DNA of 64,000 nucleotides from Squalus acanthias (lineage: Eukaryota): contig CM059432.1 of assembly GCA_030390025.1 (NCBI GenBank), positions 55,554,001 through 55,618,000 on the forward strand. Reading direction: 5' to 3'. The position numbers were made by a program, and so were the translations under genes. The stretch's first letter is position 1. Each line of letters begins with the position of its first letter. The notes beneath the pieces are model-generated. The model was not told the DNA's origin, ran no database searches, and saw nothing but the letters and a program-made list of their open reading frames with translations. Below are positions 2,750 to 58,746 of the stretch, in pieces.

Positions 2750-3069
2750 GTACGAAGTCATACAAATGTCATCTGCACCACAGCAACATTGGGCGACACC
2801 ATTGATTCCTGGTGTATAGGGTTGTTATGGAGTTGGAAGATTGATTTAAAACTTAAAGGGCCACAGTGCCTTAGTCAAGGTGCGAGTTTTTAAACGCTCT
2901 GATTTTTTGCACTAACACCATTGCGGCCTTCCGTGCATGCGTGCGGTATACTGGAGCCGCACATGCACAGTGCCCAACGGTGCCACAGTTGTGGCCCGCA
3001 CCATGGGCCACGCTTTCCTTGACTCCGTGTGGAGAAGGTCAGGGGATCCGTTGGTGTCCAGTGTGGGGT

Positions 3070-4048
3070 GGAAGTGAGAGGATCGAAGGGGGAGAGAGAG
3101 GGAATCGGAGGGTGGAGAGATGAGATCGGAGGGGGGAGAGAGAGGAGATCGGAGGGAGAGAGGGGAGATCGGAGGGAAGGAGAGAGAGGAGATCAGAGGG
3201 GGAAGAGCAAGGAGATGAGGGTGGAGGTGAGAGAGGAGATTGGAGGGGGAGAGGGAGGAGATTGGAGGAGGGGAGAGAGAGGAGATGGGGGGAGAGAGAG
3301 GAGAACGGAGGGGGGAGAGAGAGGATAAAAGGAAGAGAGAGGATCAAAGGGGCGAGAGGATCATGGAGGGAGAGAGAGGATTGAAGGGGGTGTAGAGAGA
3401 GGATCGGAGGGGGAGAGCAGAGGCGTTTGGAGTGGGGAGAGGAGATCATGAACTCGGGGGGAAGAGGAGGTCAGGAACTCGGCGGGGGGGGGCGGGTAAA
3501 GAGCATGTAGAGCACAGTGGGGATGGGGGAAGAACGTGATCCAGGTCTAAGGGTTGGCGGGGGGGGGGGTTGAGAGTGAGAATGTGATCCAGATGGGAAG
3601 AGGGATCATGTTCTTCCAACCCCACCCCCATCCCCTTTACACCCGCACCACGTTCTCCCTCTCTTCCCCCTAGACCTGGATGATTTCTCGGAAAGCGCGG
3701 TATGTGTGTGGCAAGTGATATCATTGGACTGGACAAAATCTGGAAGTCATGACACTGTCACTATTCACTTCATACCCAATAAACCTGTTAACAATCCATG
3801 ACCCACACACAATGCTCCATCTATGGGGGAGGGGGTCGGGGGAGGGAAGGTCAAGAACTTGGGCAGGGGGAGAAGGTCAGGAACTCAGAGGGTGGGGACC
3901 TCCAGGAACTTGGGCAGGGGAAGTCAGGAATCTTGGTGGTGGGGGAGGTGGGGGTAGATCAGGAATTCGAGGTGGGGGGGGGGGAAGGTCAGGAACTTGG
4001 GCAGGGGGAGAAGGTCAGGAACTTGGACGGGGCAGAAGGTCAGGAATT
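3070..4048. repeat. GA-rich degenerate tandem repeats (GGAGATCGGAGGGGGAGAGA and GGGGGAGAAGGTCAGGAACTT units)
   Basis: Low-complexity purine repeats. The second unit resumes at about 9365-9450, after the LINE insertion. Confidence 0.75.
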
Positions 4049-5705
4049 GTTTTTTTTTTATTTGTTTATGGGATGTGGGCTTCGCTGGCAAAGCCAGCAT
4101 TTATTGCCCATCCCTAGTTGCCCTTGAGAAGGTGGTGGTGAACCGCCTTCTTGAACCGCTGCAGTCCATGTGGTGAAGGTACTCCCATAGTGCTGTTAGG
4201 GAGAGAGTTCCAGGATTTTGACCCAGCGACGATGAAGGATTGGCGATATACTTCTAAGTCAGGATGGTGTGTGACTTGGAGGGGAACTTGGAGGTGGTGC
4301 TGTTCCCATGCGCCTGCTGCCCTTGTTCTTCTAGGTGGTAGAGGTCGCGGGTTTGGAAGGTGCTGCCGAAGAAGCCTTGGCGAGTTGCTGCAGTGCATCT
4401 TGTAGATGGTACACACTGCAGCCAAGGTGCGCCGGTGGTGGAGGGAGTGAATGTTTAAGGTGGTGGATGGAGTGTTGTTGGAGCTGCACTCATCCAGGCA
4501 AGTGGAGCGTATTCCATCACACTCCTTACTTGTGCCTTGTAGATGGTGGAATGGCTTTGGGGAGTCAGGAGGTGAGACACTCGCCACAGAATACCCAGCC
4601 TCTGACCTGCTCTTGTTGCCACAGTATTTATGTGGCTGGTTCAGTTAAGTTTCTGATCAATGGTGATCCCCAGGATGTTGATGGTGGGGGATTCGGCGAT
4701 GGTAATGCCGTTGAATGTCAAGGGGAGGTGGTTAGACTCTCGCTTGTTCGAGATAGTCATTGCCTGGCACTTCTGTGGCGCGAATGTTACCTGCCACTTA
4801 TCAGCCCAAGCCTGAACATCATCCAGGTCTTGTTGCATGCGGGCATAGACTGCTTCATTATCTGAGGAGTTGTGAATGGCGCTGAACACTGTGCAGTTAT
4901 CAGTGAACATCCCCATTTCCGACCTTATGTTGGAGGGAAGGTCATTGATGAAGCAGCTGAAGATGGTTGGGCCTAGGACACTGCCCTGAGGAACTCCTGC
5001 AGCGATGGCCTGGGGCTGTGATGATTGACCTTCAACCACCACAACCATCTTCCTTTGTGCTAGGTATGACTCCAGCCAGTGGAGCGTTTTCCCCCCGATT
5101 CCCATTGACTTCAGTTTTACTAAGGCTCCTTGATGCCACACTCGGTCAAATGCTGCCTTGATGTCAAGGGCAGTCACTTTCACCTCACCTCTGGAATTCA
5201 GCTCCTTTGTCCATGTTTGGACCAAGGCTGTAATGAGGTCAGGAGCCGAGTGGTCTTGGCGGAACCCAAACTGGGCATCGGTGAGTAGGTTATTTGTGAG
5301 TAAGTGCCACTTGATAGCACTGTCGATGACACCTTCCATCACTTTGCTGATGATTGAGAGTAGACTGATGGGGCGGTAATTGGCCGGGTTGGATTTGTCC
5401 TGCTTTTTGTGGACAGGATATACCTGGGCAGTTTTCCACATTGTCGGATAGATGCCAGTGTTGTAGCTGTACTGGAACAGCTTGGCTAGAGGCGCGGTTA
5501 GTTCTGGAGCACAAGTCTTCAGCACGACAGCCGGGATGTTGTCGGGGCCCATAGTCTTTGTTGTATCCAGTGTGCTCAGCCATTTCTTGATATCACGTGG
5601 AGTGAATCGAATTGGCTGAAGACTGGCTTCTGTGATGGTGGGGACCTCAGGAGTAGGCCGATATGGAGCATCAACTTGGCACTTCTGGCTGAAGATGGTT
5701 GCAAA

Positions 5706-8700
5706 TATGATATGATTGGGATTACGGAAACATGGCTCCAGGGTGACCAAGGCTGGGAACTCAACATACAGGGGTATTCAATATTCAGGAAAGATAGGCA
5801 AAAAGGAAAAGGAGGTGGGGCAGCATTGCTGGTTAAAGAGGGGATTAACACAATTGTAAGGAAGGATATTAGCTCTGATGATGTGGAATCTGTATGGGTA
5901 GAACTGAGAATACCAAGGGGCTGAAAACGTTAGTGGGAGTGGTGTATAGACCCCCAAACAGTAATACGGAGGTTGGGGATGGCATTAAAAGGGAAATTAG
6001 AGAAGCATGCAATAAGAGCACAGCAGTTATCATGGGCGACTTTAATCTACATATAGATTGGACTAACCAAATTAGTAACAATACTGTGGAGGAGGAATTC
6101 CTGGAGTGTATATGTCGAGGAACCAACTAGAGATCAGGCCATCTTAGACTGGGTATTATGTAATGAGAAAGGATTAATTAGCAATCTTGTTGTGCGAGGC
6201 CCCTTGGGGAGGAGTGATCATGATATGATCGAATTCTTCATTAAGATGGAGAGTGAAGTACAGGAAACTTTTGTTTATCCGGCACCCAAATATCCGGAAT
6301 TCTCGCTTAACCGGCAAAAATCATCCTCCGAAAACTCCTCTCAAATAACCGGCAATGTTGCCGAGTCGCAGTCGAGTCTCCGCGAACGCTGAGTGCTCCG
6401 AAAACTCCTCTCAAATAACCGGCAATGTTGCCGATCCCGAGTCTGAGTCCGAGTCCGCGAACGCCGATTTAGTCAGTAGGGGTACTTTTCAAAAGTGCCA
6501 CTACTCGGCCTCCTGGCGCTGTCGGAAGTCCGAAACACTGCAGTAGCAGGAGTTGATTCTCCCGCGCTGCCTGGAGTCTCTTTGTTAAAAATAGCCTCGG
6601 TAGATATAACTCTCCGTTATCCGGTACTTTCGATAAACCGGCACCACGCCGGTCCCGTCGATGCCGGATAAACGAAAGTTTCCTGTAGTTGACTCAGAGA
6701 CTAGGGTCCTGAATTTAAATAAAGGAAACTACGATGGTATGAGGCGCGAGTTGGGTAGGATTGATTGGGGAATGTCACTCAAAGGGTTGACGGTGGAGGG
6801 GCAATGGCAAGCATTCAAAGATCGCATGAATGAACTACAGAATTTATTCATCCCAGTTTGGCATAAAAATAAAACAACAAAGGTGACTCAACCGTGGCTA
6901 ACAAAGGAAATTAGGGAGAGCATAAGATCCAAGGAAAGGACATATAAATTGGCCAGAAAAAGCAGAAAACCTGAGGATTGGGAGCAGTATAGGATTCAGC
7001 AAAGAAGGACAAAGGGATTAATTAAGAGGGGGAAAATAGAGTATGAGAGTAAGCTTGCGAGGAACATAAAAACTGACTGTAAAAGCTTTTATAGATATGT
7101 GAAGAGAAAAAGATTGGTGAAGTCAAGCGTAGGTCCCTTGCAGTCAGAATCAGGGCAAATTATAATGGGGAACAAAGAAATGGCAGACCAATTAAATACA
7201 TACTTTGGTTCTGTCTTCACAAAGGAGGACACAAATAACCTCCCAGAGATGTCGGGGAACATAGGGTCTAATGAGAAGGAGTAACTGAAAGAAATCAGTA
7301 TTTGTAGGGAAATAGTGTGAGGGAAATTGACGGGATTGAAGGCCGATAAATCCCCAGGGCCTGATGGCCGATAAATCCCCAGGGCCTGATAATCTACATC
7401 CTAGGGTACTTAAGGAAGTGGCCCTAGAAATAGTAGATGCATTGCTGGTCATCTTCCAAAATTCTATAGACTCTGGAACAGTACCCATGGATTGGAGGGT
7501 AGCTAATGTTACCCCACTATTCAAAAAAGGTGGTAGAGAGAAAACGGGGAATTATAGACCAGTAAGCCTGACATCGGTAGTGGGGAAAATGCTAGAGTCC
7601 ATTATAAAAGATGTAATAGCAGAGCACTTGGAAAACAGTGACAGGATCGGACAAAGTCAACATGGATTTACAAAAGGCAAATCGTGCTTAACTAATCCAC
7701 TGGAATTTTTTGAGGATGTAACTGGTAAAATGGATAAGGGAGAACCAGTGGATGTGGTGTATTTGGACTTTCAGAAGGCTTTCGATAAGGTCCCGCATAA
7801 GAGATTAGCGTGTAAAGTTAAGGCACATGGGATTGGGGGCAAGGTATTGACTTGGATAGAGAACTGGTTGGCAGACAGAAAGCAAAGAGTTGGAATAAAT
7901 GGGTCTTTTTCCGAGTGGCAGGCGGTGACTAGTGGGGTACCGCAGGGATCGGTCCTAGGACCCCAGCTATTCACAATATATATTAATGATCTGGACGATG
8001 GAATTGGATGTAATATCTCCAAGTTTGCAGACGACACAAAGCTGGGTGGGAGTGTGTGCCGTGAGGAGGATGCCAAGAAACTCCAGTATGATTTGGACAG
8101 GTTGGGGGATTGGGCAGAAGCATGGCAGATGCAATATAATGTGGATAAATGCGAGGTTATCCACTTTGGTGTCAAAAACAGGAAGGCAGATTATTATCTG
8201 AATGGCAATAGATTGGGAGAAGGGGAAGTGCAACGAGACCTGGGTGTCCTTGTGCACCAATCGCTGAAGGTAAGCATGCAGGTGCAGCAGGCGGTTAAGA
8301 AGGCAAATGGTATGTTGGCCTTCGTAGCGAAAGAGTTCGAGTACAGGAACAAGGATGTCTTGCTGCAGTTGTACAGGGCCTTGGTGAGACCACATCTTTA
8401 GTATTGTGTGCAGTTTTGGTCGCCTTATCTGAGGAAGGATGTTCTTGCCATGGAGGGAGTGCAGCGAAGATTTACCAGGCTGATACCTGGGATGGCAGGA
8501 ATGGCGTATGAGGAGAGATTGGGTCGATTGGGCTTATACTCACTGGAGTTTAGAAGAATGAGAGGGGATCTCATTGAAACTTATAAAATTCTAACAGGAC
8601 TAGACAGACTAGATGCAGGAAGGATGTTCCCGATGGCCGGGGAGTCCAGAACCAGGGGTCACAGTCTAAGGATAAGGGGTAAGCCATTTAGGACTGAGAT

Positions 8701-8960
8701 GAGGAGGAATTTCTTCACCCAGAGAGTGGTGAACCTGTGGAATTCTCTACCACAGAAGGCAGTAGAGGCCAATTCATTAAATATATTCAAGAAGGAGTTG
8801 ATATATTTCTTAAAACTAAAGGGATCAAGGGATATGGAGAGAAGGCAGGGACAGGGTACTGAATTTGGATGATCAGCCATGATCTCATTGAATGGCGGAG
8901 CAGGCTCGAGGGGCTGAATGGCCTACTCCTGCTCCTATCTTCTATGTTTCTATGTATGTT
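5706..8960 (+). mobile_element. 5'-truncated CR1 LINE ORF2 (endonuclease + RT, disrupted)
   Basis: APE motifs (GITETW, MGDFN, SDH) and RT motifs (YLDFQKAFDKVPH, GVPQGSVLGP, FADD); (TTCTATGT)n-type tail. The host LINE sequence gcaaa|acgc is split at the insertion. Confidence 0.95.
6261..6685. mobile_element. Tc1/mariner (Tigger/pogo-like) MITE
   Basis: 24-bp TIRs caggaaacttttgtttatccggca / tgccggataaacgaaagtttcctg (1 mismatch), TA TSD. Removing it restores CR1 frame ESEV|VDSETR. Confidence 0.9.
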
Positions 8961-9722
8961 AAACGCTTCAGCCTTGTCTTTTGCACTCACGTGCTGGGCT
9001 CCACCATCATTGAGGATGGGGATATTCATGGCGCCTCCTCCTCCCGTTAGTTGTTTAATGGTCCATCACCATTCATGACTAGATGTGGCAGGACTACAGA
9101 GCTTTGATCTGATCCGTTGATTGTGGGATCGCTTAGCCCTATCTATAGCATGCTGCTTCCGCTTTTTAACATGCATGTAGTCCTGTGTTGCAGCTTCCTC
9201 AGGTTGGAACCTCATTTTTAGGTACGCCTGGTGCTGCTCCTGGCATGCTCTTTTATACTCCTTATTGAACCAGGGTTGGTCTCCTGGCTTGATGGTAATG
9301 GTAGAGTGAGGGATATGCCGCGACATGAGGTTACACGATTGTGGTGGAATACAATTCTGCTATTGGGGAGAGAAAAGGTCAGAAACTCGGGGGGTGGGGG
9401 GACGGTTAGGAACTTGTTGGGGGGGGTGGGTGGGGGAGAGAAGGTCCTAAACCACGAGGGTGAGCCCTGTCTGTTCTCTGTGAGCTCTGTCTGGAGCCTG
9501 GCAGTCAGAATGAATGGCTCAAATTACACATTGCAAAGTACTTGATTACTTAGGCAGGCAGGATCTAATTACACATTCCAGATAAACTGCTGGGTGTGTC
9601 TTGTCCTCCAAGGGGAGCAATCAGAAATCTGGTGTTAAAAATAGACGCAACCTTTTTAAAGATATTTTTTTCCCCCAGCCCTGCAGGCCGCTGCCCACCC
9701 TGCAATGTAGCAGGCACTCTAG

Positions 9723-13302: not shown

Positions 13303-13488
13303 GGGGTATAAATTTCACTTGGATGTAAACGCAAATCGGGCAATAGCGAATCAGCAGCCCATTTTGCACTCTACTCGATTTTCTTTTCCATTAGCTTCAA
13401 CGAAAAAGAAATTCGGGCAGAGTGTAAAACGGGTTGCCAATTCGCTATCACCTGCTTTGCGCTACCACCCAAGATAAATTTACACTCC
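13303..13488. mobile_element. 186-bp fold-back MITE (Harbinger-like)
   Basis: Whole element is an imperfect palindrome (ggggtataaattt...aaatttacactcc; atagcgaat/attcgctat; cccattttgcactct/agagtgtaaaacggg), ATT TSD. Confidence 0.7.
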
Positions 13489-14619
13489 ATTTTATTTTAT
13501 TTTTTATTATTAATAGTTTTGAGAATGCATGCAGTGAAATTCAATTTTGGAATTAACTTTTGTTGTTTCACTAACATTGTACTTTACCACTGTAACCAAA
13601 CCATGCCATCCTGCTGAGTTCCAGGACTCAGTACTTTTCTAAAGCATTTTTAATGCCCATTAATAACAGCTGTCTCCAGCAATTTAGTAATTTCTACATA
13701 ATGCACCAACATTGTCCAATTACACTCTTCCTCCTTTATTTGGTGAAAGAATAAACACCTTACTGAACCAAATGTTGGGAATAACAAGTCTTCATTCAAA
13801 AGTAACACAGGTCAGAATCCTAGCCTCTGCTGACATTCGCACACAAACTACAACCATCAAACATTCAGCTCAGTTACATCAGGGCCAGCAGCAAATAGAT
13901 TTTTTCTTTTCTCAAGCATATAAATTGGATGCTCAATTCAGAAAAAAGAGAAGCACAAGTTGTGACAAATATTTTTACAAGCCCAAGCCTTTTGAAAATG
14001 AACACCGAGTTCACTGCATTTACTCCCCTAAGACACATGTACCAATTACAGCTGAAGGAGAGCTAGTAAACAACCTGTTCCCAGTCTCAGTCTATCTTCA
14101 GCCAGCTATTTGGAGGAGGATACAAACTGTGATTTTACCTTCTCTTTCTAATGACCATGAGTGGAAGATCATAGAGTACAGAACTTAAATTTTAAGCTTA
14201 CATCTTCCAGTCCCATGGCTCAGTGAGATGGAATATTAGAGCACTGCGCCACTTTGTCATAGAGCTGAGACATTTGATTCCTATTGCAGATGAAGACTGC
14301 CAAATACTCAGATCAAAAACTTCAGTTACACTGATATGTAGATCAATGCCAATAAAGATTACTCAAGTATTAGCAAAATAATCTAAGGTGTCTTGTTCAT
14401 AATCACCCAAATAGGGTACTATGTTGATTGTCTATTATGAAGTAGCAACGCCCAATATTGGACAGATGCCAACAAAGTTGAAGTCACTTATTGCTTAGAT
14501 TCAATGAGTGAAGGTGGAGAAATCCTTTTGGAGCTGTTCCAAGATTGAAGTTGCACAGTTCCCAATTAAATATTGAAAACACAGCCACTACAATGAAAAA
14601 CTTTTAAGAGTTTAACACA

Positions 14620-17600
14620 TTTTTTATTCGTTCATGGGATGTGGGCATCGCTGGCAAGGCCAGCATTTATTGCCCATCCCTAATTGCCCTTGAGAAGATG
14701 GTGGTGAGCCATCTTCTTGAACCGCTGCAGTCCGTGAATTGAAGATACTCCCGTAGCACTGTTAGGGAGGGAGTTCCAGGATTTTGACCCAGCGACGATG
14801 AAGGAACGGCGATATACTTCCAAGTCAGGATGGTGTGTGACTTGGAGGGGAACTTGGAGGTGATGGTGTTCCCATCCGCCTGCTGCCCTTCTCCTTTTAG
14901 GTGCCCTCCTGAGCATCCCTGATTATAATCGCTCAACCATTGGTGGCCATGCCTTCTGTTGCCTAGGTCCTAAGCTCTGGAATTCCCTGCCTAAATCTGC
15001 CCACCTCACTACCTTTCTTTCTTCCTTTAAGATGCTCCTTAAAACCTACCTCTTTGACCAAGCTTTTGGTCACCTGCCTTAATTTCTCCTTATGTGGCTC
15101 GGTATCAAATTTTTTGTCTTATAATACTCCTGTGCAGTGCAATGGGACGTTTTACTACATTAAAGGTGCTATATAAATACAAGTTGTTTGTTGTTGTTGT
15201 TATAGGTCGCGGGTTTGGGAGGTGCTGTCGAAGAAGCCTTGGCGAGTTGCTGCAGTACATCTTGTAGACGGTGCACACTGCAGTCATGGTGCGCCGGTGG
15301 TGGAGGGAGTGAATGTTTCGATGGGGTGCCAATCAAGCAGGCTGCTTTGTCCTGGATGGTGTCGAGCTTCTTGAGTGTTGTTGGAGCTGCACTCATCCAG
15401 GCAAGTGGAGAGTATTCCATCACACTCCTGACTTGTGCCTGGTTTTGACCCAGCGACGATGAAGGACTTGTGACTTGTAGATGGTAGAAAGGCTTTGGGG
15501 TGTCAGGAGGTGAGACGCTCACCGCAAAATACCCAGCCACAGTACGCCGGTGATGCAGGGAGTGAATGTTTAAGGTGGTCGATGGGGTGCCAATCAAGCG
15601 GGCTGCTTTGTCCTGGATGGTGTCGAGCTTCTTGAGTGTTGTTGGAGCTGCACGCATCCAGGCAAGTTGAGAGTATTCCATCACACTCCTTACTTGTGCC
15701 TTGTAGATGGTGGAAAGGCTTTGGAGAGTCAGGAGGTGAGTCACTCGCCGCAGAATACATAGCCTCTGACCTGCTCTTGTAGCCACAGTATTTATGTGGC
15801 TGGTCCAGTTAAGTTTCTGGTCAATGGTGACCCCCCCAGGATATTGATGGTGGGGGATTCGGCGATGGTAATGCTGTTGAATGTCAAGGGGCAGTGGTTA
15901 GACTCTCACTTGTTGGAGATAGTCATTGCCTGCGCTTGTGTGGTGCGAATGTTACTTGCCACCTATCAGCCCAAGCATGAATGTCGTCCAGGTCTTGCTG
16001 CATGCGGGCATGGACTGCTTCATTACCTGAGGAGTTGCGAATGGAGCTGAACACTGTGCAGCCATCAGCGAACATCCCCACTTCTGACCTTATGATGGAG
16101 GGAAAGTCATTGATGAAGCACCTGAAGATGGTTGGGCCTTGGACACTGCCCTGAGGAACTCCAAGCGATGGCCTGGGGCTGAGATGATTGACCTCCAACA
16201 ACCACAACCATCTTCCTTCGTGCTAGGTATGACTCCAACCAGTGGAGCGTTTTCCCCCCCGATTCCCATTGACTTCAGTTTTACTAGGGCTCCTTGATGC
16301 CACACTCGGTCAAATGCTGCCTTGATGTCAAGGGCAGTCACTCTCACCTCACCTCTGGAATTCAGCTCTTTTGTCCATGTTTGGATCAAGGCTGTAATGA
16401 GGTCTGGAGCCGAGTGGTCCTGGTGGAACCCTAAACTGAGCATCGGTGAGCAGCTAATTGGTGAATAAGTGCTGTTTGATAGCACTATCGACGACACCTT
16501 CCATCACTTTGCTCACAATTGAGAGAAGACTGATGGTGCGGTAATTGGCCGGGTTTGATTCGTCCTGCTTTTTGTGGACAGGACATACCTGGGCAGTTTT
16601 CCACATTGTCAGGTAGATGCCAGTGCTGTAGCTGTACTGGAACAGCTTGGCTAGAGTTGCGGCTAGTTCTGGAGCACAAGTCTTCAGCACGCCAGCCGGG
16701 ATGTTGTCGGGGCCCACAGCCTTTGCTGTATCTAGTGCGCTCAGCCATTTCTTGATATCACGTGGAATGAATCGGATTGGCTGAAGACTGGTTTTTGAGA
16801 TGGTGGGGACCTCAGGAGGAGGCCGAGATGGATCATCCACTCGGCACTTCTGGCTGAAGATGGTTGCAAACGCATCAGTCTTGTCTTTTGCATTCGTGTG
16901 CTGGGCTCCGCCATCATTGAGGATGGGGATATTCATGGAACCTCCTCCTTCCATTAGTTGCTTAATTGGCCACCACCATTCATGACTGAATGTGGCAGGA
17001 CTGCAGAGCATTGATCTGATCCTTTGGTTGTGGGATCGCTTAGCCCTGTCTATAGCATGCTGCTTCCGCTTTTTAGTATGCATGTAGTCTGTGTTGCAGC
17101 TTCCCCAGGTTGGCACCTCATTTTTAGGTATGCCTGCTGCTGCTCCTGGTATGCTCTTCTGCACTCCTCATTGAACCAGGGTTGGTCCCCTGGCTTGATG
17201 GTAATGGTAGAGTGAGGGATATGCCCGGCCATGAGGTTACAGATTGTGGTGGAATACAATTCTGCTGCTGCTGATGGCCCACAGCACCTCATGGATGGCC
17301 AGTTTTGAGCTGCTAGATCTGTTCTAAATCTATCCCATTTAGTACGGTGGTAGTGCCACACAACACGATGGAGGGTGTCCTCAGTGTGAAGACGGGACTT
17401 CGTCTCCACAAGGACTGTGCAGTGGGCACTCCTAAAAGTACTGTCATGGACTGATGCATCTACAACAGGTAGATTGGTGAGGACGAGGTCAAGTAGGTTT
17501 TTCCCTCGTGTTGGTTCTCTCACCACCTGCCGCAGGCCCAGTCTCACAGCTATGTCCTTCAGGACTCGGCCAGCTCGGTCAGTAGTGGTGCTACCGAGCC

Positions 17601-18365
17601 ACTCTTGGTGATGGACATTGAAGTCAGCAGGAGGTTTCCTTTCCCATGCTTGACCTGCAGCCATGAGACTTCATGGGGTCCAGAGTCAATGTTGATGACT
17701 CCCAGCGCCACTCCCTCCCAACTGTATACCACTGTGCCGCTACTTCTGGTGGGTCTGTCCTGCCGGTGGGACAGGACATACCCAGGGATGATGATGGAGG
17801 AATCTGGGACACAGGCTGAAAGGTATGATTCTGTGAGTATAACTATGTCAGGCTGTTGCTTGACTAGTCTGTGGGACAGCTCTCCCAATTTTGGCGCAAG
17901 TCCCCAGATGTTAGTGAGGAGGACTTTGCAGGGTCGACTGGGTTGGGTGTGCCGTTGTCGTGTCCAAAGCTGGTGCCTAGGTCGATGCCGGGTGGTCCGT
18001 CCAGTTTTATTCTTATTATTGTTTTTCGTAGCGGTTTTTGTACAACTGAGTGGCTTGCTAGGCCATTTCAGTGGGCAGTTAAGAGTCAACCATATTGCTG
18101 TGGGTCTGGACTCACATATAGGCCAGACCAGGTAAGGACAGCAGATTTCCTTCCCTAAAGGGATATTAGTGAACCAGATGGATTTTTACGACAATCTGAT
18201 AGTTTGATGGTCACCATTATTGATACTAGCTTTTTATTCCAGATTTATTTAATTAACTGAATTTAAATTCCCCAGCTGCCATGGTGAAATCTGAACTCAC
18301 ATCTTTGGATCATTAGTCCAGGCCTCTAGATTACTAGTCCAGTAACATAACCACTCTGCTACTGC
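14620..18365 (-). mobile_element. Near full-length Zenon-like LINE with tRNA-like 5' head, frameshifted
   Basis: APE fragments (NIWGL..KLGEL, DIVILTESYL, DFNVHHQEWLGS) and RT fragments through the shared 3' tail. The 5' end carries an A box (tagcagagtgg) and an anticodon-like arm. Confidence 0.9.
14903..15203 (+). mobile_element. L2 LINE 3' fragment inserted in the Zenon-like LINE
   Basis: Matches the L2 3' end at 63780-64000 and ends in tatataaatacaagttg(ttg)n; interrupts host sequence taggtg|...|aggtcgcggg. Confidence 0.8.
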
Positions 18366-20631
18366 ACTATCACACAGGCACAACTGCTGACAAAATTATG
18401 GAAGGAACATCAACGGCCTACCCATAGGCATGGCTCAACCACATGTATTCACTCAATGTGCTCAAGCTAATTGTGATTTTTGACAAGAAATTTGGACAAA
18501 ACTATCTGTTTCAGTAGTTCTCGGAACTATTTTGGGCTGGGATCCGACAAAAATAATCTCAGCTTCTTATGCCCAAATAGCTAAGCTGGGGTAAATCTTC
18601 AAAAAATGTTTCCATCCTCCCTTCTGTTTTTCACTTCTGTTTCTCTTTTCTCTTCACAATTTTGAACTGCCTAATATCCTCCTGAAAATTGTATCTTGAT
18701 CTCCTCCTTCAGTTCTGTTTTTCTCTTTTTCCCCACACTTCTATGTTTTTCTCTCTCTCCTCCACTTTGGTTTCACACTATCTACCACACTCTTGTCTCT
18801 CTCTTCTCCACTTTGGTTTTTCACTATCCTCATTTAGGTCTTTGTTTCCAACTCACTTTGGTTTCTGTCACCTAATTCACTTTGGACTCTGTCCCTCTCT
18901 CGCCTTTCTTCTCTGCCTCTGTACTTTTCCTTTCCCTCTTGAACAATTTTCTTTTCACTTTACTTCCCACAGCACTGGAGTTGCCATATGGGAAGCACCA
19001 TGAGAAAAATGAGGGAATCAGAAGGGTCTTTGAATGTCAGGGAGCAAGACTTTTATTTTAAAAAGCAGAAGGAGTGGAGATGCTAAAGAAAAGCATGAGT
19101 GATGCAGACATAAAAACCAAGAAGAAAGGGAAGGAGAGACTTCAAAGGAAAAGCCGCAGGAGTGGGAGACTTAAGAAAAAAGTACCAAAGGGATTCCTGA
19201 AAAAAGCACAGGAGAGAAACAAGCCAGCGCCTGTGAAATGGTGGTTGGGACTGCCCTACTCATCCCAGGTGGCAGCAATACCAGTGCACCATTCACATAA
19301 CATTGGCAGTTTTACAGAAGGTCAACACAGGGAACACTGGAAAAATATCCAGATGTTTGACTTGATTGTAAGTGCCAAAGTGGGAAATGAGAATGAATGT
19401 GAATAAATAAATTCCCATATGTATTGACGTTGTCATATATGTAGCCACTGATGACAATCAAAGTAAGTTACAGATGTCACACCAGTTTGCTTGAGTACCA
19501 TAGTATATGTAACCCAAAGTGACCTAGTATCCTGCTGTAAATGCAAGACAAAGAGAACTAAGAGGTGGGTCAGAAAAGGACTTAGAATGATGCAGCTGGG
19601 AAAAAGTGATGATGGGCTACCATTATTCACACATATAACTGGCAATTACAGTGCATTCAATCAGTTCTCAAACATTTTCACAAGCAAGATGCGTTACATT
19701 TAGGCAAGCTATGCTTAAGGCGATAAAACTATGTGGCCGCCTAAAATACACAGCACAAAATATTCACTCAGTGTATATTTACTTTCTCCTTAAAGAAAAG
19801 AAGCTGCTTTCAACAGAAGGCAGAAAGCACAGATCAGTGGAGGGATTCAGCAAGCCAAACCTCTCACTCCCTTCAAAGATGTTATCACGAAGCTCATTAG
19901 GTAGGAAGCTGTACAGAAAGTGGGCGACACGCAGAGGAATACACTCCAGGTTTGTATAATTATTATGGCATGTGTTTCAGCAGGTGTAAAGCAGTGACTG
20001 CGTTACACTGCAAAATATGCCATGTACTGCACAGCAACAAGAGCATTCCAGACAATGCACTCTGCATCATGAGCCCTTTCTTCTTCGTTTTAAAGACATG
20101 CCACAATCCCAGGAGCAGCAAGATGAGCCATCTCAGCAAAAGCACTCAGTCGCATCAAGCACACACCAAACCAGAGACACACACTCTGCAGACATTTACT
20201 AATTTAGAAGTTATGAGTCAATTTTCACAGGTATGAAAGGAGCCGAGGTGGTGGCTAAAAATGGGGCTGGCGATTGTTCAGGAGATGCATATTATGACAC
20301 AGACCCAGCTGAATTAATTCATGGAGCCAGCTATGCAATCAAGGATATTTCAAGAACACAAATAAGAGTACAATGCAAACAGCTGGTATACAGCTAAGGG
20401 ATGTTGTGCCACAAGTTTCTCTGCTCTACAGACTACAACTATGCAGCATCAGTGGTATCTGCAGAGGAGATCTCGGGCACACTGGCAATAAGCACAGTTG
20501 CAGCACCTCTTATGAATGGTCCCACTATTGCTGTGGAGATGCTGAGGTCCATACTCCATGACGCAATAACGGTGGGTTTCAACGCACTTGGAGACAGATT
20601 CCAAACAATGCTGCCTCTAATTTTTTTTCAG

Positions 20632-25532: not shown

Positions 25533-25755
25533 TGGTCATGATGCGGAGATGCCGGTGTTGGACTGGGGTGGACAAAAATGAGAAGTCGCACAACACCAGG
25601 TTATAGTCCAACAGTTTTATTTAAAATTACGAGCTTTCAGAGCTGCTGCCCCTTCGTCAGGTAGAGGTACTACCTGACGAAGGGGCAGCAGCTCCGAAAG
25701 CTCGTAATTTTAAATAAAACTGTTGGACTATAGCCTGGTGTTGTGCGACTTCTCA
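25533..25755. mobile_element. Penelope-like element remnant: inverted pseudo-LTR pair with tail
   Basis: 87-bp inverted arms 25578-25664 / 25670-25756 (2 mismatches). One-sided extension caccccagtccaacaccggcatctccgcatcat on the minus strand. 13-bp direct repeat tcttctcatgaag at 25520-25532 and 25756-25768. Confidence 0.8.
25671..25706 (+). ncRNA. Minimal type I hammerhead ribozyme motif (mirror copy on minus strand at 25628-25663)
   Basis: UAC-CUGACGA-A-GGGGC(AGCA)GCUCC-GAA-AGCU-C-GUA: core boxes, stem II, palindromic stem III and 3-bp stem I. Confidence 0.7.
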
Positions 25756-26639: not shown

Positions 26640-26875
26640 TTGTAAGTGTAAGCCCTTTTCCAGGACTTTGAGCACGTAATCTTAGCTGACACATCGGTGA
26701 CACTGAGCCAGTGCTGCTTTGTTGGAGGTTATGTATTTTGAATGAGATGTTAAACTGAAGCCTGTCTGTCTACTCAGGTGAAGAGAGATCCGATGGCTCA
26801 ATTCAAAGAAGAGCAGAGAGCTCTCCTGGTGCCTTAGCCAACACTGCCAAAACAAATTAACTGCTCATTTATCCA
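26640..26875 (+). mobile_element. Decayed Deu-domain SINE (SacSINE1-like)
   Basis: ggactttgagcac...gctgacac...gaatgagatgttaaactgaagcctgtctgtctactcaggtg...gaagagcag; homologous to 60690-61450. Confidence 0.65.
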
Positions 26876-26879
26876 AAAA

Positions 26880-29795: not shown

Positions 29796-30670
29796 GTAAC
29801 ATTTGCGCCAGCCACTGACCATGTCCAACAAGAGAAAGTCTATCCAGCTCCCCTTGAGATTCAAAGGCATTACCAGCATCGAATCCCCCACCATCAACAT
29901 CCTGGGGGGGTCACCATTGACCAGAAACCTAACTTGACCAGCTACATAAATACTGTGGCTACAAGAACAGGTCAGAGGCTGGGTATTCTGCAGTGAGAGA
30001 CTCACCTCCTGACTCCACAAAGCTTTTCCACCATCTACAAGGCACAAATCCCTTTAAATTTGTGCAGCAGCCGTACATGCACCATATCTCTTCCAGCGGA
30101 AAAGCTGGTGAGTGGCCTGCGCGGGACCTCGCGATCGGCCGTGTGCCTTAGGGGGAACATTGGTCAGAAGTGTGATGGAATACTCTCCACTTGCCTGGAT
30201 GAGTGCAGCTCCAGCAACACCAGCTAGGACAAAGCAGCCTGCTTGATTGGCACCCCATCCACCACCTTAAACATTCATTCCCTCCACCACCGGCGCACCG
30301 TGTCTGCAGTGTGTACTATCTACAAGATGCACTACAGCAACTCGCCAAGGCTTCTTCAACAGGACCTCCCAAACCCACGATCTCTACCACCTAGAAGGAC
30401 AATGGAGCAGGCGCATGGGAACACCACCACCTTCAAATTCCCCTCCAAGTCACATACCATCCTGATTTGGAAATATATCACCGTTCCCTCATCGTTGCTG
30501 GGTCAAAATCCTGGAACTCCCTACATAACAGCACTGTGGGAGAACATTCACTACACGGACTACAGCGGTTCAAGGTGGCGGCTCCCCACCACTTTCTCAA
30601 GGGCAATTTGGGATGGGCAATAAATGTTGGCCTTGCCAGTGATGCCCACATCCCGTGAATGAATTTTTAA
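29796..30670 (+). mobile_element. Zenon-like LINE 3' fragment containing a short MITE at 30047-30162
   Basis: IGTPSTTLNIHSLHHRRTVSAVCTIYKMH and the family 3' tail. Host sequence aaggcacaa|gtcag is split by the MITE. Confidence 0.85.
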
Positions 30671-30819
30671 AAACTGGGAGGGAGAATGCCAACTTGAATT
30701 GAGGAGTAAGGAGCATTAGATTCAATGGGGAGGAAGAAGCATTCAGCTAGAATGGTTGGGGACAAGCAGCAATTTATGGGGAATGGAAGAAGGGGGAGAG
30801 AGTGCCATGTTGAATTGAG

Positions 30820-36421: not shown

Positions 36422-39400
36422 GGGCTAAAAATTCGGGGTCTTTACACCACCCGTTACCCTCAAAAAATGACGAAAAGAGGGCGGCCACTGCTCTTTTCCC
36501 ATCTGGTGGTGGGTCCCACAGTGTCCGCCATTTTCCCAGGCCCGGCATCACTGTCGCTAAGATGCGTCGCCCAACAAAGTAAAATGAGGGAGCGGTGACG
36601 TCCCATGCTGAATTAACGTCACCAGGGCGAACTTGAACCTTTGCGCTGGTTCCTAAGCTCCAGTAATCCAGAGGCCTGGACTAATGATTCAAAGACATCA
36701 GTTCGAATCCCACCACAGCAGCTGGGGAATTTAAATTCAGTTAATTAAATAAATCTGTAATTAAAAGAAGCTCATATCAGTAATGGTGACGATGAAACTA
36801 TCGGATTGTCGTAAAAATCCATTTCGTTCACTAATGTCTTTTAGGGAAGGAAATCCGCCATCCTTACCTGGTCTGGCCTATATGTGACTCCAGACCCACA
36901 GCAATGTGGTTGACTCTTAACTGCCCTCTGAAATGGCCTAGCAAGCCACTCAGTTGTACCAACCCGCTACAAAAAACAATAATAAGAATAAACTCGGCAT
37001 CGACCTAGGCACCGGCTTCGGACACGGCAACGGCACATCCAGCACAGTCAACCCTGCAAAGTCCTCCTCACTAACATCTGGGGACTTGTGCCAAAATTGG
37101 GAGCGCTGTCCCACAGACATAGTCATACTCACAGAATCATACCTTTCAGCCAATGTCCCAGACTCCTCCATCACCATCCCTGGGTATGTCCTACCCAACC
37201 AGCAGGACAGACCCACCAGGGGTGGTGGCAGAGTGGTATACAGTCAGGAGGGAGTGGCCCTGGGAGTCTTCCACATTGACTCCAGACCCCATGAAGTCTC
37301 ATGGCTTCAGGTCAAGCATGGGCAAGGAAATCTCCTGCTGATTGCCACCTATCACCCTCCCTCAACTGATGAATCAGTACTCCTCCATGTTGAATGCCAC
37401 TTGGAAGAAGCACTCAGGATAGCAAGGGCACAGAACATACTCTGGGGGGGGGAATTCAATGTCCATCACCAAGAGTGGCTCGGTAGCACCAATACTGACC
37501 AAGCTTGCCGAGTCCTGAAGGGCATAGCTGCCAGACTGGTGCTGCGGCAAGTGGTGAGAGAACCAACAGGAGGGAAAAACCTACTTGACCTCGACCTCAC
37601 CAATCTACCTGTCGCAGATGCATCTGTCCAAGGCAGCATTGGTAGCAGTGACCACCGCACAGTTCTTGTGGAGACAAAGTCCTGTCTTCGCACTGAGGAC
37701 ACCTTCCATCGTGTTGTGCGATACTACCTCCGTGCTGAATGGAATAGATTCAGAACATATCTAGCAGCTCAAAACTGGGCATCTATGAGATGCTGTGGGC
37801 CATCAGCAGCAGCAGAATTGTATTCCATCACAATCTGTAACCTCATTGCCCGGCATAACCCTCACTCTACCATTACCATCAAGCCAGGGGACAAATCCTG
37901 GTTCAATGAGGAGTGCAGAAGAGCATGCCAGGAGCAGCACCAGGCATACCTAAAAATGAGGTGCCAACCTGGGGAAGCTGTAACACAGGACTACATGCAT
38001 GCTAAACATCAGAAGCAGCATGCTATAGACAGAGCTAAGCGATCCCACAAACAACAGATCAGATCAAAGCTCTGCAGTCCTGCCACATCCGATCGTAAAT
38101 ACTGGTGCACAATTAAACAACTAACGGGAGGAGGAGGTTCCATGAACGTCCCCATCGTCAATGATGGTGGAGCCCAGCACATGAATCCAAAAGAGAAGGC
38201 TGAAGCATTTGCAACCATCTTCAGCCAGAAGTGCCAAGTGGATGATCCATCTCGGCCTCTTCCTGAGGTCCCCACCATCACAGAAGCCAGTCTTCAGCCA
38301 ATTAGATTTACTCCACGTGATATCAAGAAACGGCTGAGCACACTAGATACAACAAAGACTATGGACCCCGACAACATCCCGGCTGTCGTGCTGAAGATTT
38401 GTGCTCCAGAACTAGCCGCACATCTAGCCAAGCTGTTCCAGTACAGCTACAACACTGGCATCTATCTGACAATGTGGAAAACTGCCCAGGTAGGTCCTGG
38501 CCTCAAAAAGCAGGACAAATCCAATCCGGCCAATTACCACCCCATCAGTCTAGTCTCAATCATCAGCAAAGTGATGGAAGGTGTCGTCGACAGTGCTATC
38601 AAGCGGCACTTACTCACCAATAACTAGCTCACCAATGCTCAGTTTGGGTTCTGCCAGGACAACTCGGCTCCAGACCTCATTACAGCCTTGATCCAAACAT
38701 GGACAAAAGAGCTGAATTCCAGAGGTGAGGTGAGAGTGACTGCCCTTGACATCAAGGCAACATTTGACCGAGTGTGGCATCAAGGAGCCCGAGTAAAATT
38801 GAAGTCAAAGGGGGAAAACTCTCCGCTGGCAAGAGTCATACCTAGCACAATGGAAGATGGTTGTGCTTGTTGGAGGTCAATCATCTCAGCTCCAGGACAT
38901 TGCTGCAGGAGTTCCTCAGGGCAGTGTTCTCGGCCCAACCATCTTCAGCTGTTTCAACAATGACCTTCCTTCCATCATAAGGTCAGAAGTGGAGATGTTC
39001 GCTAATGACTGCACAGTATTCAGTTCCTATTGCAACTCCTCCGATAATGAAGCAGTCCATGCCTGCATGCAGCAAAACCTGGACGACATTCAGGCTTGGG
39101 CTGATAAGTGGCAGGTAACATTCGCGCCACACAAGTGCAGGCAATGACTATCTCCAACAAGCTAGAGTCTAACCACCACCCCTTGATATTCAATGGCATT
39201 AAAATCGCCGAATCTCCCACCATCAACATCCTGGGGGTCACCATTGACCAGAAACATAACTGGACCAGCCACGTAAATAAAGTGGCTACAAGAGCAGGTC
39301 AGAGGCTGGGTATTTTGCTGCGGGAGTCTTACCTCCTGACTCCCCAAAGCCTTTCCACCATCTACAAGGCACAAGTCAGGAATGTGATGGAATACTCTCC

Positions 39401-41700
39401 ATTTGCCTGGATGAGTGTAGCTTCAGCAACACTCAAGAAGCTCAATATTATCCAGGACAAAGCAGCCCGCTTAATTGGCACCCCATCCATCACCTTAAAC
39501 ATTCATTCCCTCCACCACTGGCGTACTGTGGCTGCAGTGTGTACCATCTACAAGATGCACTGCAGCAACTTGCCAAGGCTTCTTCGACAGCACCTCCCAA
39601 ACCCGCAACCTCTACCACCTAGAAGGACAAGGGCAGCAGGCACATGGGAACACCACCACCTCCAAGTTCCCCTCCAAGACACACACCATCCTGACTTGGA
39701 AATATGTCGCCGATCCTTCATCTTCGCTGGGTCAAAGTCCTGGCACTCCCTCCCTATCAGCTCTATGGGTGTACCTTCACCGCACGGACTGCAGCGGTTC
39801 AAGGCGGCGGCTCACCACCACCTTCACAAGGGCAATTTGGGATGGGAAATAAATGCTGGCCATGCCAGCGATGCCCACATCTCAGGAATTAATTTTTAAA
39901 AAGCAGACTCAGAGGCGCTGTCAGCACCTGTTAAAGGGACACAGACAACTTTCAGGTAAGTTTACTTTTAAGCTTTTGGACTGGGTTTTACTGATTTTAC
40001 TGAAGTAGTGGCTTGCTGCAATAGATGTTAAAAATGTGTAGGGGAAGAAGACAGGAAAAAGCTGCAAATACTCAGCAGATCAGGTAACATCTGTGGAGAG
40101 AGAAACAGAGTTCACATCTCAGGTCAAGCTGCTGCCTGACCTGCTGAGGATTTCCTGCATTTAGGCTGTCATTTCAGATTTATAGCATCCGCTCACAGAG
40201 GGAAGAGGAAGACGCAGAAGAGGAAGAAGCCAGAGAGGAGGAATCAGAAGAGAAGGAAGCCAAAGAGCAGGAAACAGAAGAGGAGGAAATAGAAAAGGGG
40301 GGAGCAGAAGGAAGGATGCAACCCAGACAGACCCTTTCTGGCCGGGATATCCGGGGTAGAATCATCCGACTGCGGTACCAGTGACCACAACTCCAATTCC
40401 CCTTTCAACATTTGTCCCACACCTTACCTTCCCTCTGTTACTGACCATCACAGTGTCCTCTTGGCCACGATGCTGAAATAAAGCCACCACAAAGCAAGCT
40501 TTCCAATCCAACATCTATCCATCCAATATGACATCAAGAAATCAACTCAACACCCATATGCATTCTCTTCGTGAGTGTCTTGTGTGTGCCTTTGCCTATC
40601 CTACTGATGTCATGCAGTGCTACCCCAGTGCCTGCAGCATGGCTGGTGGAAGGCTGCTGACTTTCACTTCAAATGGCCTTGCTGGTTGACATTGAGGAGC
40701 TGGTGGCTGGGAGTGTCAAATCGAGTGACGGTGTTTCTTTTTCTTCTTCACTCTCCTCTTCCTCTTCTTGGCCAACCAAGGCTGCATTTCTTGGGTATGT
40801 GAAGTGAGGAAGGCACAAGGGTGGGGTTCTGGTGAGGGGAGGGCGGGAAAGCAAGAGGTGCATGCCAGAAGGAGGATAACGTATGAGGATACCAACATCT
40901 TGTATCCTTTCTGCCCCGCCGCTGGCCAATGGCTCAGCCATGCCCCTGCCAAGTATGGCCTGCACCGTCTCTTCCAAGGGGGTGAGGTGAGGCTCGGAAT
41001 GGGAGGTGTGCCTCGTGATTGGTACAGATTGTTGGCAGGTGAGTGATTGAGGGGGAGGGGAGTTGTGCATTGAGTAGTGTGTGAGGCTAGTGGTGCAGTT
41101 GGTAGGAGACAGCTTTTGAAGATGCATTCACTGACCATGACTAGTGGTCTAAGGTCATGAAGTTTCTTTGGGCATTGGAGCCTCGGTGATGTGGTCCCAC
41201 ATTGTTCTTTCTGGAGGGCCTCCTGGCCCCTGTGGGTAGAGGACCTGTCTTGCAGAGTTGACCCCCTGCACGAAGCTGGAGTGCTGCATGCGAGACACTG
41301 GGGCTCCTTCCCTGGCTTGCTGAGCCATTTGTGTTAGTGCTGAGGCAGTTTTCCCGTTTTTTGAGGTTCGGAAGGGAATTCAGCTTTAAGTGCTGAAGAC
41401 TGCCATTTGGGAATTATTTTTAATGTTAATTTTTTTTTAAAGGCATTTTTTCATTTAATTTTAATTTTTATTAGTTCTGAAGGCAATGCCCTTTTAATTA
41501 CGCACAATTCCTGGTGAACTCCAGAGGCTGTTAGAAGCTGGAACGCCAGTTCAGGACAGGAACTTCGACTTCCTTGGCTGCATTAACGCCATCAGGAGGG
41601 CCTTACACAGTAAGTTAGTGCTGGGCTGAAATTTTTGGCCTCCAGTGCGAATTTTTCCCTGGTAGCGCTTTGTCCATTTTCAGCGGCCGTTAACCCGAGT
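36422..41700 (-). mobile_element. Harbinger internal-deletion derivative with Myb/SANT-gene remnant, split by the LINE at 36660-39903
   Basis: TIR-like gggctaaaaatt at 36422. Segments on both sides of the LINE (36560-36655, 39905-41350) are homologous to inverted 48590-49620. Remnant peptides VQGVNSARQVLYPQG..MWDHITE..QCPKKLHDL and LTPLEETVQAILG. Confidence 0.6.
36660..39903 (+). mobile_element. Near full-length Zenon-like LINE (single APE-RT ORF, few lesions) with tRNA-like head
   Basis: 557-aa ORF 36954-38627 followed by RT pieces to 39899. B box gttcgaatcc at 36701. The 5' 300 bp match 18040-18340 in reverse complement. Confidence 0.92.
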
Positions 41701-58589: not shown

Positions 58590-58746
58590 CTTCAGGGGAT
58601 AGAGGTGGCTGATCCGATTCAAGGTAGAGCTGAGAGAAGATTGGTCGAGGAGAAATACTGTTGGAGCGAAGTGATGCTTCTATTGAATTGTGAAGAGCCT
58701 CTTCAAAGCGTGCAGATTTCAGTTGCCCAGCATATGAATTTCCCAT
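58590..58746 (-). CDS. GREB1L: GREB1-like protein, first coding exon (157 coding nt)
   Basis: Acceptor gttttcag|aca then ATG at 58746. Translation [52 protein letters not shown]. Donor G|gtcaag at 58589, phase 1, joins the 24411 exon in frame. Confidence 0.95.

What the first reader, a model, noticed from the sequence alone, without database searches (positions are those of the whole stretch)
18040..18365. Protein-coding LINE whose 5' end is a tRNA-Thr(AGU)-like Pol III head
Seen (minus strand): gTAGCAGAGTGGttatgtta-CTGGA-CTAGTAA-TC(T/C)AG-...-gagttc. That is an A box, a 5-bp anticodon stem with the 7-nt loop CUAGUAA (anticodon AGU), an expanded variable region and a B box (intact GTTCGAATCC at 36701 in the other copy). 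In two independent insertions (here and 36660-36955) the same 300-bp head runs directly into the endonuclease ORF, with no room for an ORF1. Established: tRNA heads define SINEs, whereas LINEs normally use Pol II internal promoters. Inference: a SINE-LINE chimera amplified as one autonomous unit. I cannot tell whether it has already been described.
Basis: partly seen in the sequence, partly recalled or inferred. Interest (0 to 1): 0.72.

Follow-up and report, generated by a model that had tools for sequence, protein, structure and literature searches.

The report
Shark LINE with tRNA-type promoter head
An abundant shark and ray jumping gene that encodes its own copying enzyme starts with the tRNA-type promoter normally seen only on small non-coding repeats, and its 3.3-kb body avoids the stop signals of the tRNA-making polymerase, which suggests it may be a rare protein-coding element made by that polymerase.

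Summary
The feature is real. Both copies belong to the elasmobranch Zenon LINE family (CR1 group; Stuart et al. 2026, PMC13343379). Lack of ORF1 is a known trait of all Zenon elements, so it is not a surprise. The tRNA head is a family feature: 7 of 7 published shark and ray Zenon consensuses begin 5-10 nt before an A box, followed by an anticodon arm and B box. The paper never mentions tRNA. Corrections: copy 36661 lacks the A box; the head fits tRNA-Ser(AGA) better than Thr. New evidence for full-length Pol III transcription: 2,772 bp of ORF hold 0 sense-strand terminators (TTTT, TCTTT, TATTT) against 7.6 expected, while window CR1s and 58 of 58 related ORFs carry them. Contigs of two public runs show a ~390-nt head+tail derivative. 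The ORF has no in-frame AUG through the endonuclease. Best reading: a Pol III-transcribed autonomous LINE (0.55); no transcript was tested. Two earlier notes of this scan report the same headed family elsewhere in this genome; the terminator test and the Ser assignment do not appear in their summaries.

The parts
18276..18369 (-). tRNA-derived head of copy A (class II, Ser-like): A box 18361-18351, anticodon arm 18342-18326, enlarged variable-arm hairpin 18321-18305, T arm with decayed B box 18296-18288; 5' end about 18364-18369
   Evidence: start position from published consensuses
18067..18275 (-). Body / 5' UTR of copy A, conserved across sharks and rays; no Rfam match, no Meta-domain motif; contains several upstream ATGs
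18058..18066 (-). ATG-GCC-TAG minigene directly before the EN-RT frame (in frame in copy B; copy A has one extra base near 18040)
   Evidence: (table 4)
15204..18057 (-). Decayed endonuclease-reverse transcriptase ORF of copy A (frameshifts, a ~170-bp deletion in the endonuclease, a duplicated piece near 15534-15281)
14904..15203 (.). 300-bp insertion private to copy A (other copies join 14903 to 15204); recalled as L2/SINE-type tail pieces, not tested
   Evidence: table 5
14620..14903 (-). 3' end of copy A: last codons, stop TAG at 14682-14680, 3' UTR hairpin with AATAAA, short A tail; 14691-14620 is the part kept in the head+tail derivative
36661..36941 (+). Head of copy B, 5'-truncated inside the anticodon arm; exact B box 36701-36709; ATG-GCC-TAG at 36933-36941
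36942..39900 (+). EN-RT ORF remains and 3' end of copy B (561-aa open stretch 36942-38627 with Exo_endo_phos_2; ends in TTTTT then A run)
4054..9361 (-). Copy C, 5'-truncated, headless, in two pieces (9361-8961 and 5705-4054) split by a CR1 insertion; RVT_1 domain in 5777-4641
29809..30673 (+). Copy D, 5'-truncated, headless 3' fragment with tail

Best explanation
An elasmobranch Zenon LINE whose native 5' end is a tRNA-derived (most likely Ser-AGA, class II) type 2 internal promoter. TFIIIC binds the A and B boxes, Pol III starts a few bases upstream of the A box and runs through the whole ~3.3-kb element because the sense strand has been purged of T-run terminators; it stops at a T run at or beyond the 3' end and the RNA gains or carries an A tail. 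The uncapped RNA is translated into one EN-RT protein by a non-scanning or readthrough/re-initiation route at the ATG-GCC-TAG junction, and the protein copies its own RNA by target-primed reverse transcription via the 3' hairpin. The same enzyme mobilises a ~390-nt head+tail derivative. Shown: family identity, head at the 5' end, terminator depletion, head+tail joint, lack of in-frame AUG in the two window copies. Inferred: Pol III use, translation route, source tRNA, trans-mobilisation.
For: (1) 7 of 7 elasmobranch Zenon consensuses from 5 species start 5-10 nt before an A box of form TRGCNNAGTGG; 5 of the 7 hold an exact GTTCRAATCCC B box, while the spacer between the boxes differs in sequence and length. 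(2) Six B-box words hit only these rows among the first 400 letters of at least 910 vertebrate CR1-group consensus rows; the 2 hagfish and 1 coelacanth Zenon 5' ends show no such head by eye; lepidopteran Zenon-derived Persaeus has no tRNA or Pol III promoter; 0 of 58 related ORFs have an upstream A+B pair and ARAGORN finds 0 tRNAs in 57 loci. (3) Terminators: 0 TTTT in a 2,772-bp tile of the ORF vs 4.9 expected under uniform synonymous codons (P 0.0035) and 4.7 under CR1 codon use (P 0.004); with TCTTT and TATTT added, 0 vs 7.6 (0 of 1,500 simulations) while A4, C4 and G4 runs are not depleted. Window CR1 ORFs: 23 vs 29 expected (P 0.10). 58 of 58 related ORFs carry terminators, minimum 2.24 per kb, median 8.0, against 0-1.2 per kb in whole window copies; the nearest relative L001 (46% RT identity) has 7 TTTT. 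All 5 TTTT runs in the window copies are absent from the other copies at the same column. No TTTT in the first 400 nt of the 7 consensuses (by eye). (4) In a run guessed to be RNA the head bins are about 8-fold deeper than the neighbouring endonuclease bins, against about 1.1-fold in a DNA run of the same organism code. (5) 7-8 upstream ATGs in the head and no in-frame Met through the endonuclease (first Met at residue 282 of the copy B frame) fit poorly with cap-dependent scanning. (6) AATAAA about 40 nt before the end in 4 of 4 copies and TTTTT before the A run in 2 of 4 resemble the 3' ends of polyadenylated Pol III SINEs (PMC8466645 abstract).
Against: No transcript, cap, polymerase or ChIP data. 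Under the family's own codon use the TTTT deficit is not significant (expected 2.2, P 0.09), though that null already contains the T avoidance. The tile was taken from the longest open frames of 2-3 related copies, not independent samples; one site reads TATTTTG in 2 of 5 homologous instances (copy B and a duplicated piece of A), so a subfamily may carry one terminator. The full published consensuses could be read only to 400 letters. Related ORFs come from unknown hosts at 21-46% identity, and one has a TTTT-free stretch of 2,064 bp. Known Pol III retroelements are 0.1-1.3 kb and thought to be length-limited (PMC10886601). Depth is from contigs, unstranded, run type guessed, and is not a measure of expression. 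The leader frame is not uniform: by eye ATG-GCC-TAG is in frame with the endonuclease in 3 consensuses (CarCar, HypSab, ScyCan) and copy B, not in RhiTyp, SquAca-1 or copy A. AATAAA and a poly(A) tail also fit Pol II, and poly(A) is Zenon-wide.
Confidence: 0.55

Rival explanations
1. The head is an integral, conserved 5' end, but the coding RNA is made by Pol II (from the 200-nt body or with TFIIIC as a helper); the A/B boxes are kept because they drive the short head+tail SINE and exchange with the LINE, or act as an insulator/enhancer.
For: LINEs are normally Pol II units; AATAAA and poly(A) tail; a head+tail element exists and could supply the head-rich RNA signal; the body is strongly conserved across species; a capped RNA needs no unusual translation premise for the 5' end.
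Against: Does not explain the lack of TTTT, TCTTT and TATTT along the coding part, which the short element does not contain, nor the start of every consensus just before the A box, nor the many upstream ATGs.
Confidence: 0.3
2. The head is a dead passenger captured once by template switching or insertion into a SINE; terminator depletion is a by-product of C-rich codon bias or of selection against U-rich RNA signals.
For: Sense strand is C-rich and T-poor (C 0.28, T 0.21; Phe TTC 35 to TTT 10); deficit is weak under own codon use (P 0.09); no cloverleaf or acceptor stem is kept.
Against: 14 related ORFs with T at or below 24.5% still carry 1.5-5.3 TTTT per kb; box positions are invariant across sharks and a ray while the spacer changes; a 5' passenger should be lost by 5' truncation.
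Confidence: 0.1
3. A site-specific LINE that inserts at one position inside a resident SINE, so that head and tail are target DNA, not part of the element.
For: Head+tail molecules without the ORF exist (29 contigs in X3 and 8 in X15 over three neighbouring joints); target-specific LINEs are known (recalled).
Against: 5'-truncated copies C and D carry the tail but no head at their truncation points; the tail holds the last codons and stop of the ORF; the head end holds the start of the reading frame.
Confidence: 0.03
4. Two chance SINE-LINE juxtapositions or an assembly artefact.
For: Only 2 head copies in the window; no target-site duplication found for A or B.
Against: Identical junction in both copies, in at least 70 contigs of X3 and 15 of X15 that cross position 18040 (table 4), and in 7 published consensuses.
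Confidence: 0.01

Closest known systems
Elasmobranch Zenon LINEs (CarCar, HypSab, RhiTyp, ScyCan Zenon-1; SquAca Zenon-1/2/3; Stuart et al. 2026, PMC13343379; CR1-Zenon in the whale shark preprint 10.1101/443036)
   Same: Same head, body and leader sequence by eye over the first 400 nt (closest: SquAca_Zenon-1), ~3.3 kb, single EN-RT ORF, no ORF1, A tail.
   Different: Nothing structural. The papers do not mention the tRNA head ('tRNA' 0 times in text and supplement) or a head+tail derivative.
Lepidopteran Zenon and its SIDE Persaeus (PMC6740152)
   Same: Single-ORF Zenon plus a short internally deleted derivative made of 5' UTR with ORF start and ORF end with 3' UTR, the architecture of the joint seen here.
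   Different: Persaeus has no tRNA, 5S or 7SL homology and no Pol III promoter.
tRNA-derived SINEs (SINE2), incl. bipartite RTE/Vingi SINEs (PMC5786205), Zenon-tailed bivalve SINEs (PMC11481361), polyadenylated T+ SINEs (PMC8466645), shark HE1 and SacSINE1
   Same: tRNA head with A and B boxes, LINE-derived 3' end, in some AATAAA plus terminator plus A tail.
   Different: Non-coding and 0.1-0.7 kb; in those cases the partner LINE has no tRNA head. The known shark SINEs pair with HER1 or L2/CR1-4_DR-like LINEs.
TRIMp3 elements Cassandra, Helenus, Ajax (PMC10886601)
   Same: Retroelements outside SINEs that took a small-RNA-gene Pol III promoter.
   Different: Non-autonomous LTR elements of 0.3-1.3 kb that encode no protein.
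R2 non-LTR elements (recalled, no call)
   Same: Single-ORF LINE translated from an RNA not made by Pol II, without a conventional AUG start.
   Different: Pol I co-transcript released by a ribozyme; restriction-like endonuclease; rDNA-specific.

Membership tests
Zenon (CR1 group) LINE | Sequence belongs to the elasmobranch Zenon families | tested here: met
   First 400 nt of 7 consensuses match head, body and leader by eye; four 11-14-letter motifs hit 5-7 rows, all elasmobranch Zenon. No computed alignment to the consensuses.
Zenon (CR1 group) LINE | Single ORF with apurinic endonuclease and RT, no ORF1 | tested here: met
   Exo_endo_phos_2 E 7.5e-9 and RVT_1 E 5.4e-39; about 300 nt from 5' end to frame start
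Zenon (CR1 group) LINE | Poly(A) tail | tested here: met
   A runs of 5-9 at the end of 4 of 4 copies, 2 of them preceded by TTTTT; flanks heterogeneous beyond 14620
Zenon (CR1 group) LINE | RT falls in the Zenon clade against named references | tested here: inconclusive
   Tree of 56 RT regions separates it from the window's CR1 and groups it with 6 compact single-ORF relatives (support 0.95), but holds no named Zenon reference
tRNA-derived SINE (SINE2) | 5' A and B boxes in a tRNA-like head | tested here: met
   Rfam tRNA 17.9 bits, sub-threshold, on the decayed copy
tRNA-derived SINE (SINE2) | Short and non-coding | tested here: not met
   Copies A and B are 3.2-3.7 kb with EN-RT; met only by the ~390-nt head+tail derivative
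tRNA-derived SINE (SINE2) | Transcribed by Pol III | not testable with these tools
   Indirect only: terminator depletion
MetaSINE (tRNA-Thr head) | 66-bp Meta domain after the head | tested here: not met
   No likeness by eye to BivaMeta-SINE1; a 12-letter Meta motif has 6 window hits at 2 mismatches vs 6.15 by chance, none in either head. Only bivalve sequences were seen.
Functional tRNA gene | Cloverleaf with acceptor stem, called by ARAGORN/Rfam | tested here: not met
tRNA-Thr(AGU) origin | Anticodon arm and variable loop of Thr-AGT | tested here: not met
   Loop matches (7 of 7) but stem-loop core matches Thr at 9 of 15, Gln-CTG at 12, Ser-AGA at 14, by eye against human primers; long variable arm fits class II (recalled). 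Shark tRNAs were not available.

The most novel reading that the evidence does not exclude
An autonomous, protein-coding retrotransposon whose 3.3-kb mRNA is made by RNA polymerase III from a captured tRNA-Ser promoter, kept terminator-free by selection since before sharks and rays split, and translated without a cap or an in-frame AUG; its short derivative is at once a SINE and an internally deleted LINE, giving a direct route from LINE to SINE.
Probability: 0.5. Interest if true: 0.87.

Novelty: new variant of a known kind. Interest (0 to 1): 0.68.

Why it matters
The textbook split is LINE = Pol II and coding, SINE = Pol III and non-coding. A LINE that occupies a visible share of shark and ray genomes and appears to run on a tRNA promoter would break that split, show that a natural multi-kilobase Pol III RNA can be translated, and give a simple, testable model for how SINE-LINE partners arise. 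The head is short and the predictions are sharp (box mutants, amanitin, 5' end chemistry). If Pol III is not used, it remains an unannotated, ancient promoter capture in a poorly described vertebrate LINE lineage.

Tried and rejected
No genome is held for the window, so copy counts and 5' ends could not be tallied. Head motif scans of metagenome and viral contigs found 0 matches; a protein scan of viral contigs confirmed 0 of 78 candidates. In one search, run X24 laid 0 reads and X23 only 182, so the two raw-read runs are uninformative; loose ends at the 5' boundary were not among the rows shown. MetaSINE lead rejected. My first idea that the ATG-TGG at 36904 starts the ORF was dropped: it is in frame only in copy A, which has an extra base and reads ATA there. 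The idea that the variable region is a tandem duplicate of the anticodon arm (second copy 21 nt on, 3-4 mismatches) fits the window and SquAca but not the other consensuses, whose hairpin differs by two apparently compensatory pairs (by eye); left open. No target-site duplication for A or B; weak candidates for C (11 bp, 1 mismatch) and D (7 bp) not flush with the ends. Rfam on 19 related loci found no tRNA or ribozyme (3 sub-threshold hits). In one search the control 'CR1_d' was taken on the wrong strand and is disregarded; one search has it right. 17 of the 75 loci had no ORF of 350 aa and were left out of the terminator counts. Searches of the long-protein index gave only 3 hits.

Full report
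Setting. The window is repeat-rich vertebrate DNA; the family's named relatives are elasmobranch (a Heterodontus protein matches 82% over 13% of the query; consensuses). No genome was held. Four copies of one LINE family lie in the window: A (18363-14620, minus), B (36661-39900, plus), C (9361-8961 and 5705-4054, minus, split by a CR1) and D (29809-30673, plus). Only A and B reach the head.

Observation. Copy A shows an exact A box at 18361-18351, an anticodon arm with loop CTAGTAA, a second hairpin and a B box with 2 mismatches; copy B starts inside the anticodon arm, lacks the A box and has an exact B box at 36701. Head, endonuclease and middle ORF are each 90% identical between A and B, the tail 88%, as expected if they travelled together. 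On the window alone the tRNA likeness is weak: ARAGORN 0, Rfam tRNA 17.9 bits against a cut-off of 29, and A+B pairs arise 0.58 times per shuffled window.

Family. The ORF has Exo_endo_phos_2 and RVT_1 domains. Its nearest full-length relatives are compact 940-980-aa EN-RT proteins at 32-38% identity, one from the moth Loxostege, which pointed to Zenon. Stuart et al. 2026 (PMC13343379; I saw the abstract, passages, sections 13 and 43, and supplement rows cut at 400 letters) report Zenon in five elasmobranchs, coelacanth and hagfish, always without ORF1 and with a poly(A) tail. Their Supplementary Table 2 holds 10 Zenon consensuses. The 7 from sharks and a ray (3.2-3.3 kb for five, 2.9 and 3.1 kb for two) all begin with this head, 5-10 nt before an A box of the form TRGCNNAGTGG, and run through the same body into the same leader; the 2 hagfish and 1 coelacanth consensuses show no such head by eye. 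'tRNA' occurs 0 times in that paper's text and searchable supplement and 0 times in the whale shark preprint (passages; its supplements are closed). Six B-box words hit 5 rows, all elasmobranch Zenon, among the first 400 letters of at least 910 rows (two of the words were chosen after seeing the heads).

Head is lineage-specific. Lepidopteran Zenon's derivative Persaeus has no tRNA homology or Pol III promoter (PMC6740152, passages). Of 75 related loci from metagenomes, 58 have an ORF of 350 aa or more; none has an A+B pair upstream; ARAGORN found 0 tRNAs in the 57 loci given. Many of these contigs may not reach the 5' end, and ARAGORN also misses the shark head, so this is modest evidence. 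The nearest, L001 (46% RT identity), has 735 nt upstream without boxes and ends in TAA repeats.

Source tRNA. The loop reads AGU, but against human primers in PMC8220392 (passages) the 15-nt core TGGA-CTAGTAA-TCCA matches Ser-AGA at 14 positions, Gln-CTG at 12 and Thr-AGT at 9 (by eye; copy A itself has one further change). The Ser-AGA 5' fragment in PMC10878346 (passages) has an A box of the same short form, and a long variable arm is the mark of Ser/Leu tRNAs (recalled). I therefore read the head as Ser-like with an AGA-to-AGU change; this is not settled without shark tRNAs. It is not a MetaSINE (PMC4824008, parts 2-3 of 6 and supplement part 1 of 4).

Short derivative. Laying four runs on 14500-18600 gave joints from 14689, 14690 and 14691 to 18041, 18041 and 18044 in 7, 15 and 7 contigs of DNA run X3 and 2, 5 and 1 contigs of X15: a ~390-nt element of head plus the last ~70 nt. 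At least 70 contigs of X3 and 15 of X15 cross 18040 in the head-ORF form. The joint falls a few codons into the frame and three codons before the stop, the layout of Persaeus. Headless truncated copies C and D carry the tail, which rules out a LINE targeting a resident SINE. Summed depth in X3: flank 33, head bins 447,000 and 900,000, endonuclease bins 526,000-735,000, tail 7-8 million; so the family is very abundant and mostly 5'-truncated, though the tool warns these are not copy numbers. In X15 (RNA by guess) the head bins are 33,000 and 77,000 against 5,500-8,700 for the endonuclease. X23 (182 reads) and X24 (0) add nothing.

Test of Pol III read-through. Pol III stops at TTTT and, in some SINEs, at TCTTT or TATTT (PMC8466645, abstract). 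A full-length Pol III transcript needs a sense strand free of them. The copies hold 5 TTTT runs in about 9.5 kb, each absent from the other copies at that column; one site reads TATTTTG in 2 of 5 homologous instances. A 2,772-bp tile of the ORF (from B and C) holds 0 TTTT against 4.9 expected with uniform synonymous codons (P 0.0035), 4.7 with CR1 codon use (P 0.004) and 2.2 with its own use (P 0.09). With the weak terminators, 0 against 7.6 (0 of 1,500 simulations); A4 11 vs 14.7, C4 10 vs 7.7, G4 8 vs 8.5; window CR1 ORFs 23 vs 29 in 6,714 bp. Pooled open frames: 3 TTTT in 6,075 bp of Zenon vs 14 in 6,714 bp of CR1 (P 0.011; copies are not independent). All 58 related ORFs carry terminators (2.2 per kb at least, median 8.0; whole window copies 0-1.2), including 14 with equally low T content. 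The tile was chosen as the longest open frames, and the longest TTTT-free stretch in a relative is 2,064 bp against 2,474 in B. This is the main positive evidence, and it is indirect.

3' end and translation. All 4 tails have AATAAA about 40 nt from the end, a hairpin (same fold in 3 of 4) and an A run; 2 have TTTTT just before it, as in polyadenylated Pol III SINEs, though this also fits Pol II. The head has 8 (A) and 7 (B) ATGs upstream of the endonuclease. In B the frame is preceded by ATG-GCC-TAG and has no Met until residue 282; A's endonuclease frame has none before its deletion. By eye the same minigene is in frame in the CarCar, HypSab and ScyCan consensuses, off by one in RhiTyp and SquAca-1, and present in 6 of 7. 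Readthrough, re-initiation or internal entry are all possible; none was tested. The window copies are dead (frameshifts), and intact ORFs are rare in the published families (for example 0 of 2,313, 1 of 1,419 and 3 of 612).

Prior art. Searches found no description of an autonomous LINE with a tRNA head or of this shark head+tail element. Read as passages or parts: PMC5499810 (part 2 of 6), PMC5786205, PMC7245038 (part 2 of 4), PMC11481361, PMC3747384, PMC13295347, PMC10886601. The last states that non-LTR retrotransposons use Pol II and that Pol III elements are short. Repbase, Dfam, SINEBase, subscription papers and the Zenodo files could not be seen and may hold a prior annotation. A word search of this scan's notes, made after my reading was formed, returned two agreeing AI notes on other copies in this genome; they are not independent evidence.

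Verdict. A known LINE family with an apparently unremarked, conserved tRNA-derived 5' end: a new variant of a known kind. Pol III transcription of the whole element is my best explanation (0.55); Pol II transcription with a retained head is the main rival (0.30). Interest 0.68.

Noticed in passing
window 32561-35064 (minus): Near full-length CR1 with an upstream GDSL/SGNH esterase-type ORF1 (Lipase_GDSL_2, E 6e-13) and a 659-aa EN-RT open stretch; a second CR1 head is inserted or adjoins at 35009-35419.
   Followed up: partly
window 44508-45894 (minus): Decayed PIF/Harbinger-type transposase pieces (DDE_Tnp_4, E 1e-7 and 1e-4).
   Followed up: partly
window 58534-59004 (minus): Open frame containing [28 protein letters not shown], recalled as the start of GREB1-like proteins; no Pfam hit. 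If right, copies A-D may lie in its introns.
   Followed up: partly
window 13334-13457, 25622-25712, 47243-47353: Near-palindromic ~100-120-bp elements that give spurious microRNA hits in Rfam; probably MITE-like repeats.
   Followed up: no
window 581-1736 and 2912-3470: Degenerate G-rich tandem arrays (about 15-30-bp units) that give long low-complexity open frames.
   Followed up: no
window 14904-15203: Insertion inside copy A, partly homologous to 60877-61175, 29100-29373, 63792-63991 and 26873-27004; a second abundant repeat family, recalled as L2/SacSINE1-type tails.
   Followed up: partly
P0001 (Heterodontus francisci): A predicted 'storkhead-box protein 1-like' includes a stretch 82% identical to this LINE's ORF: exonisation or a gene-model error.
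   Followed up: no
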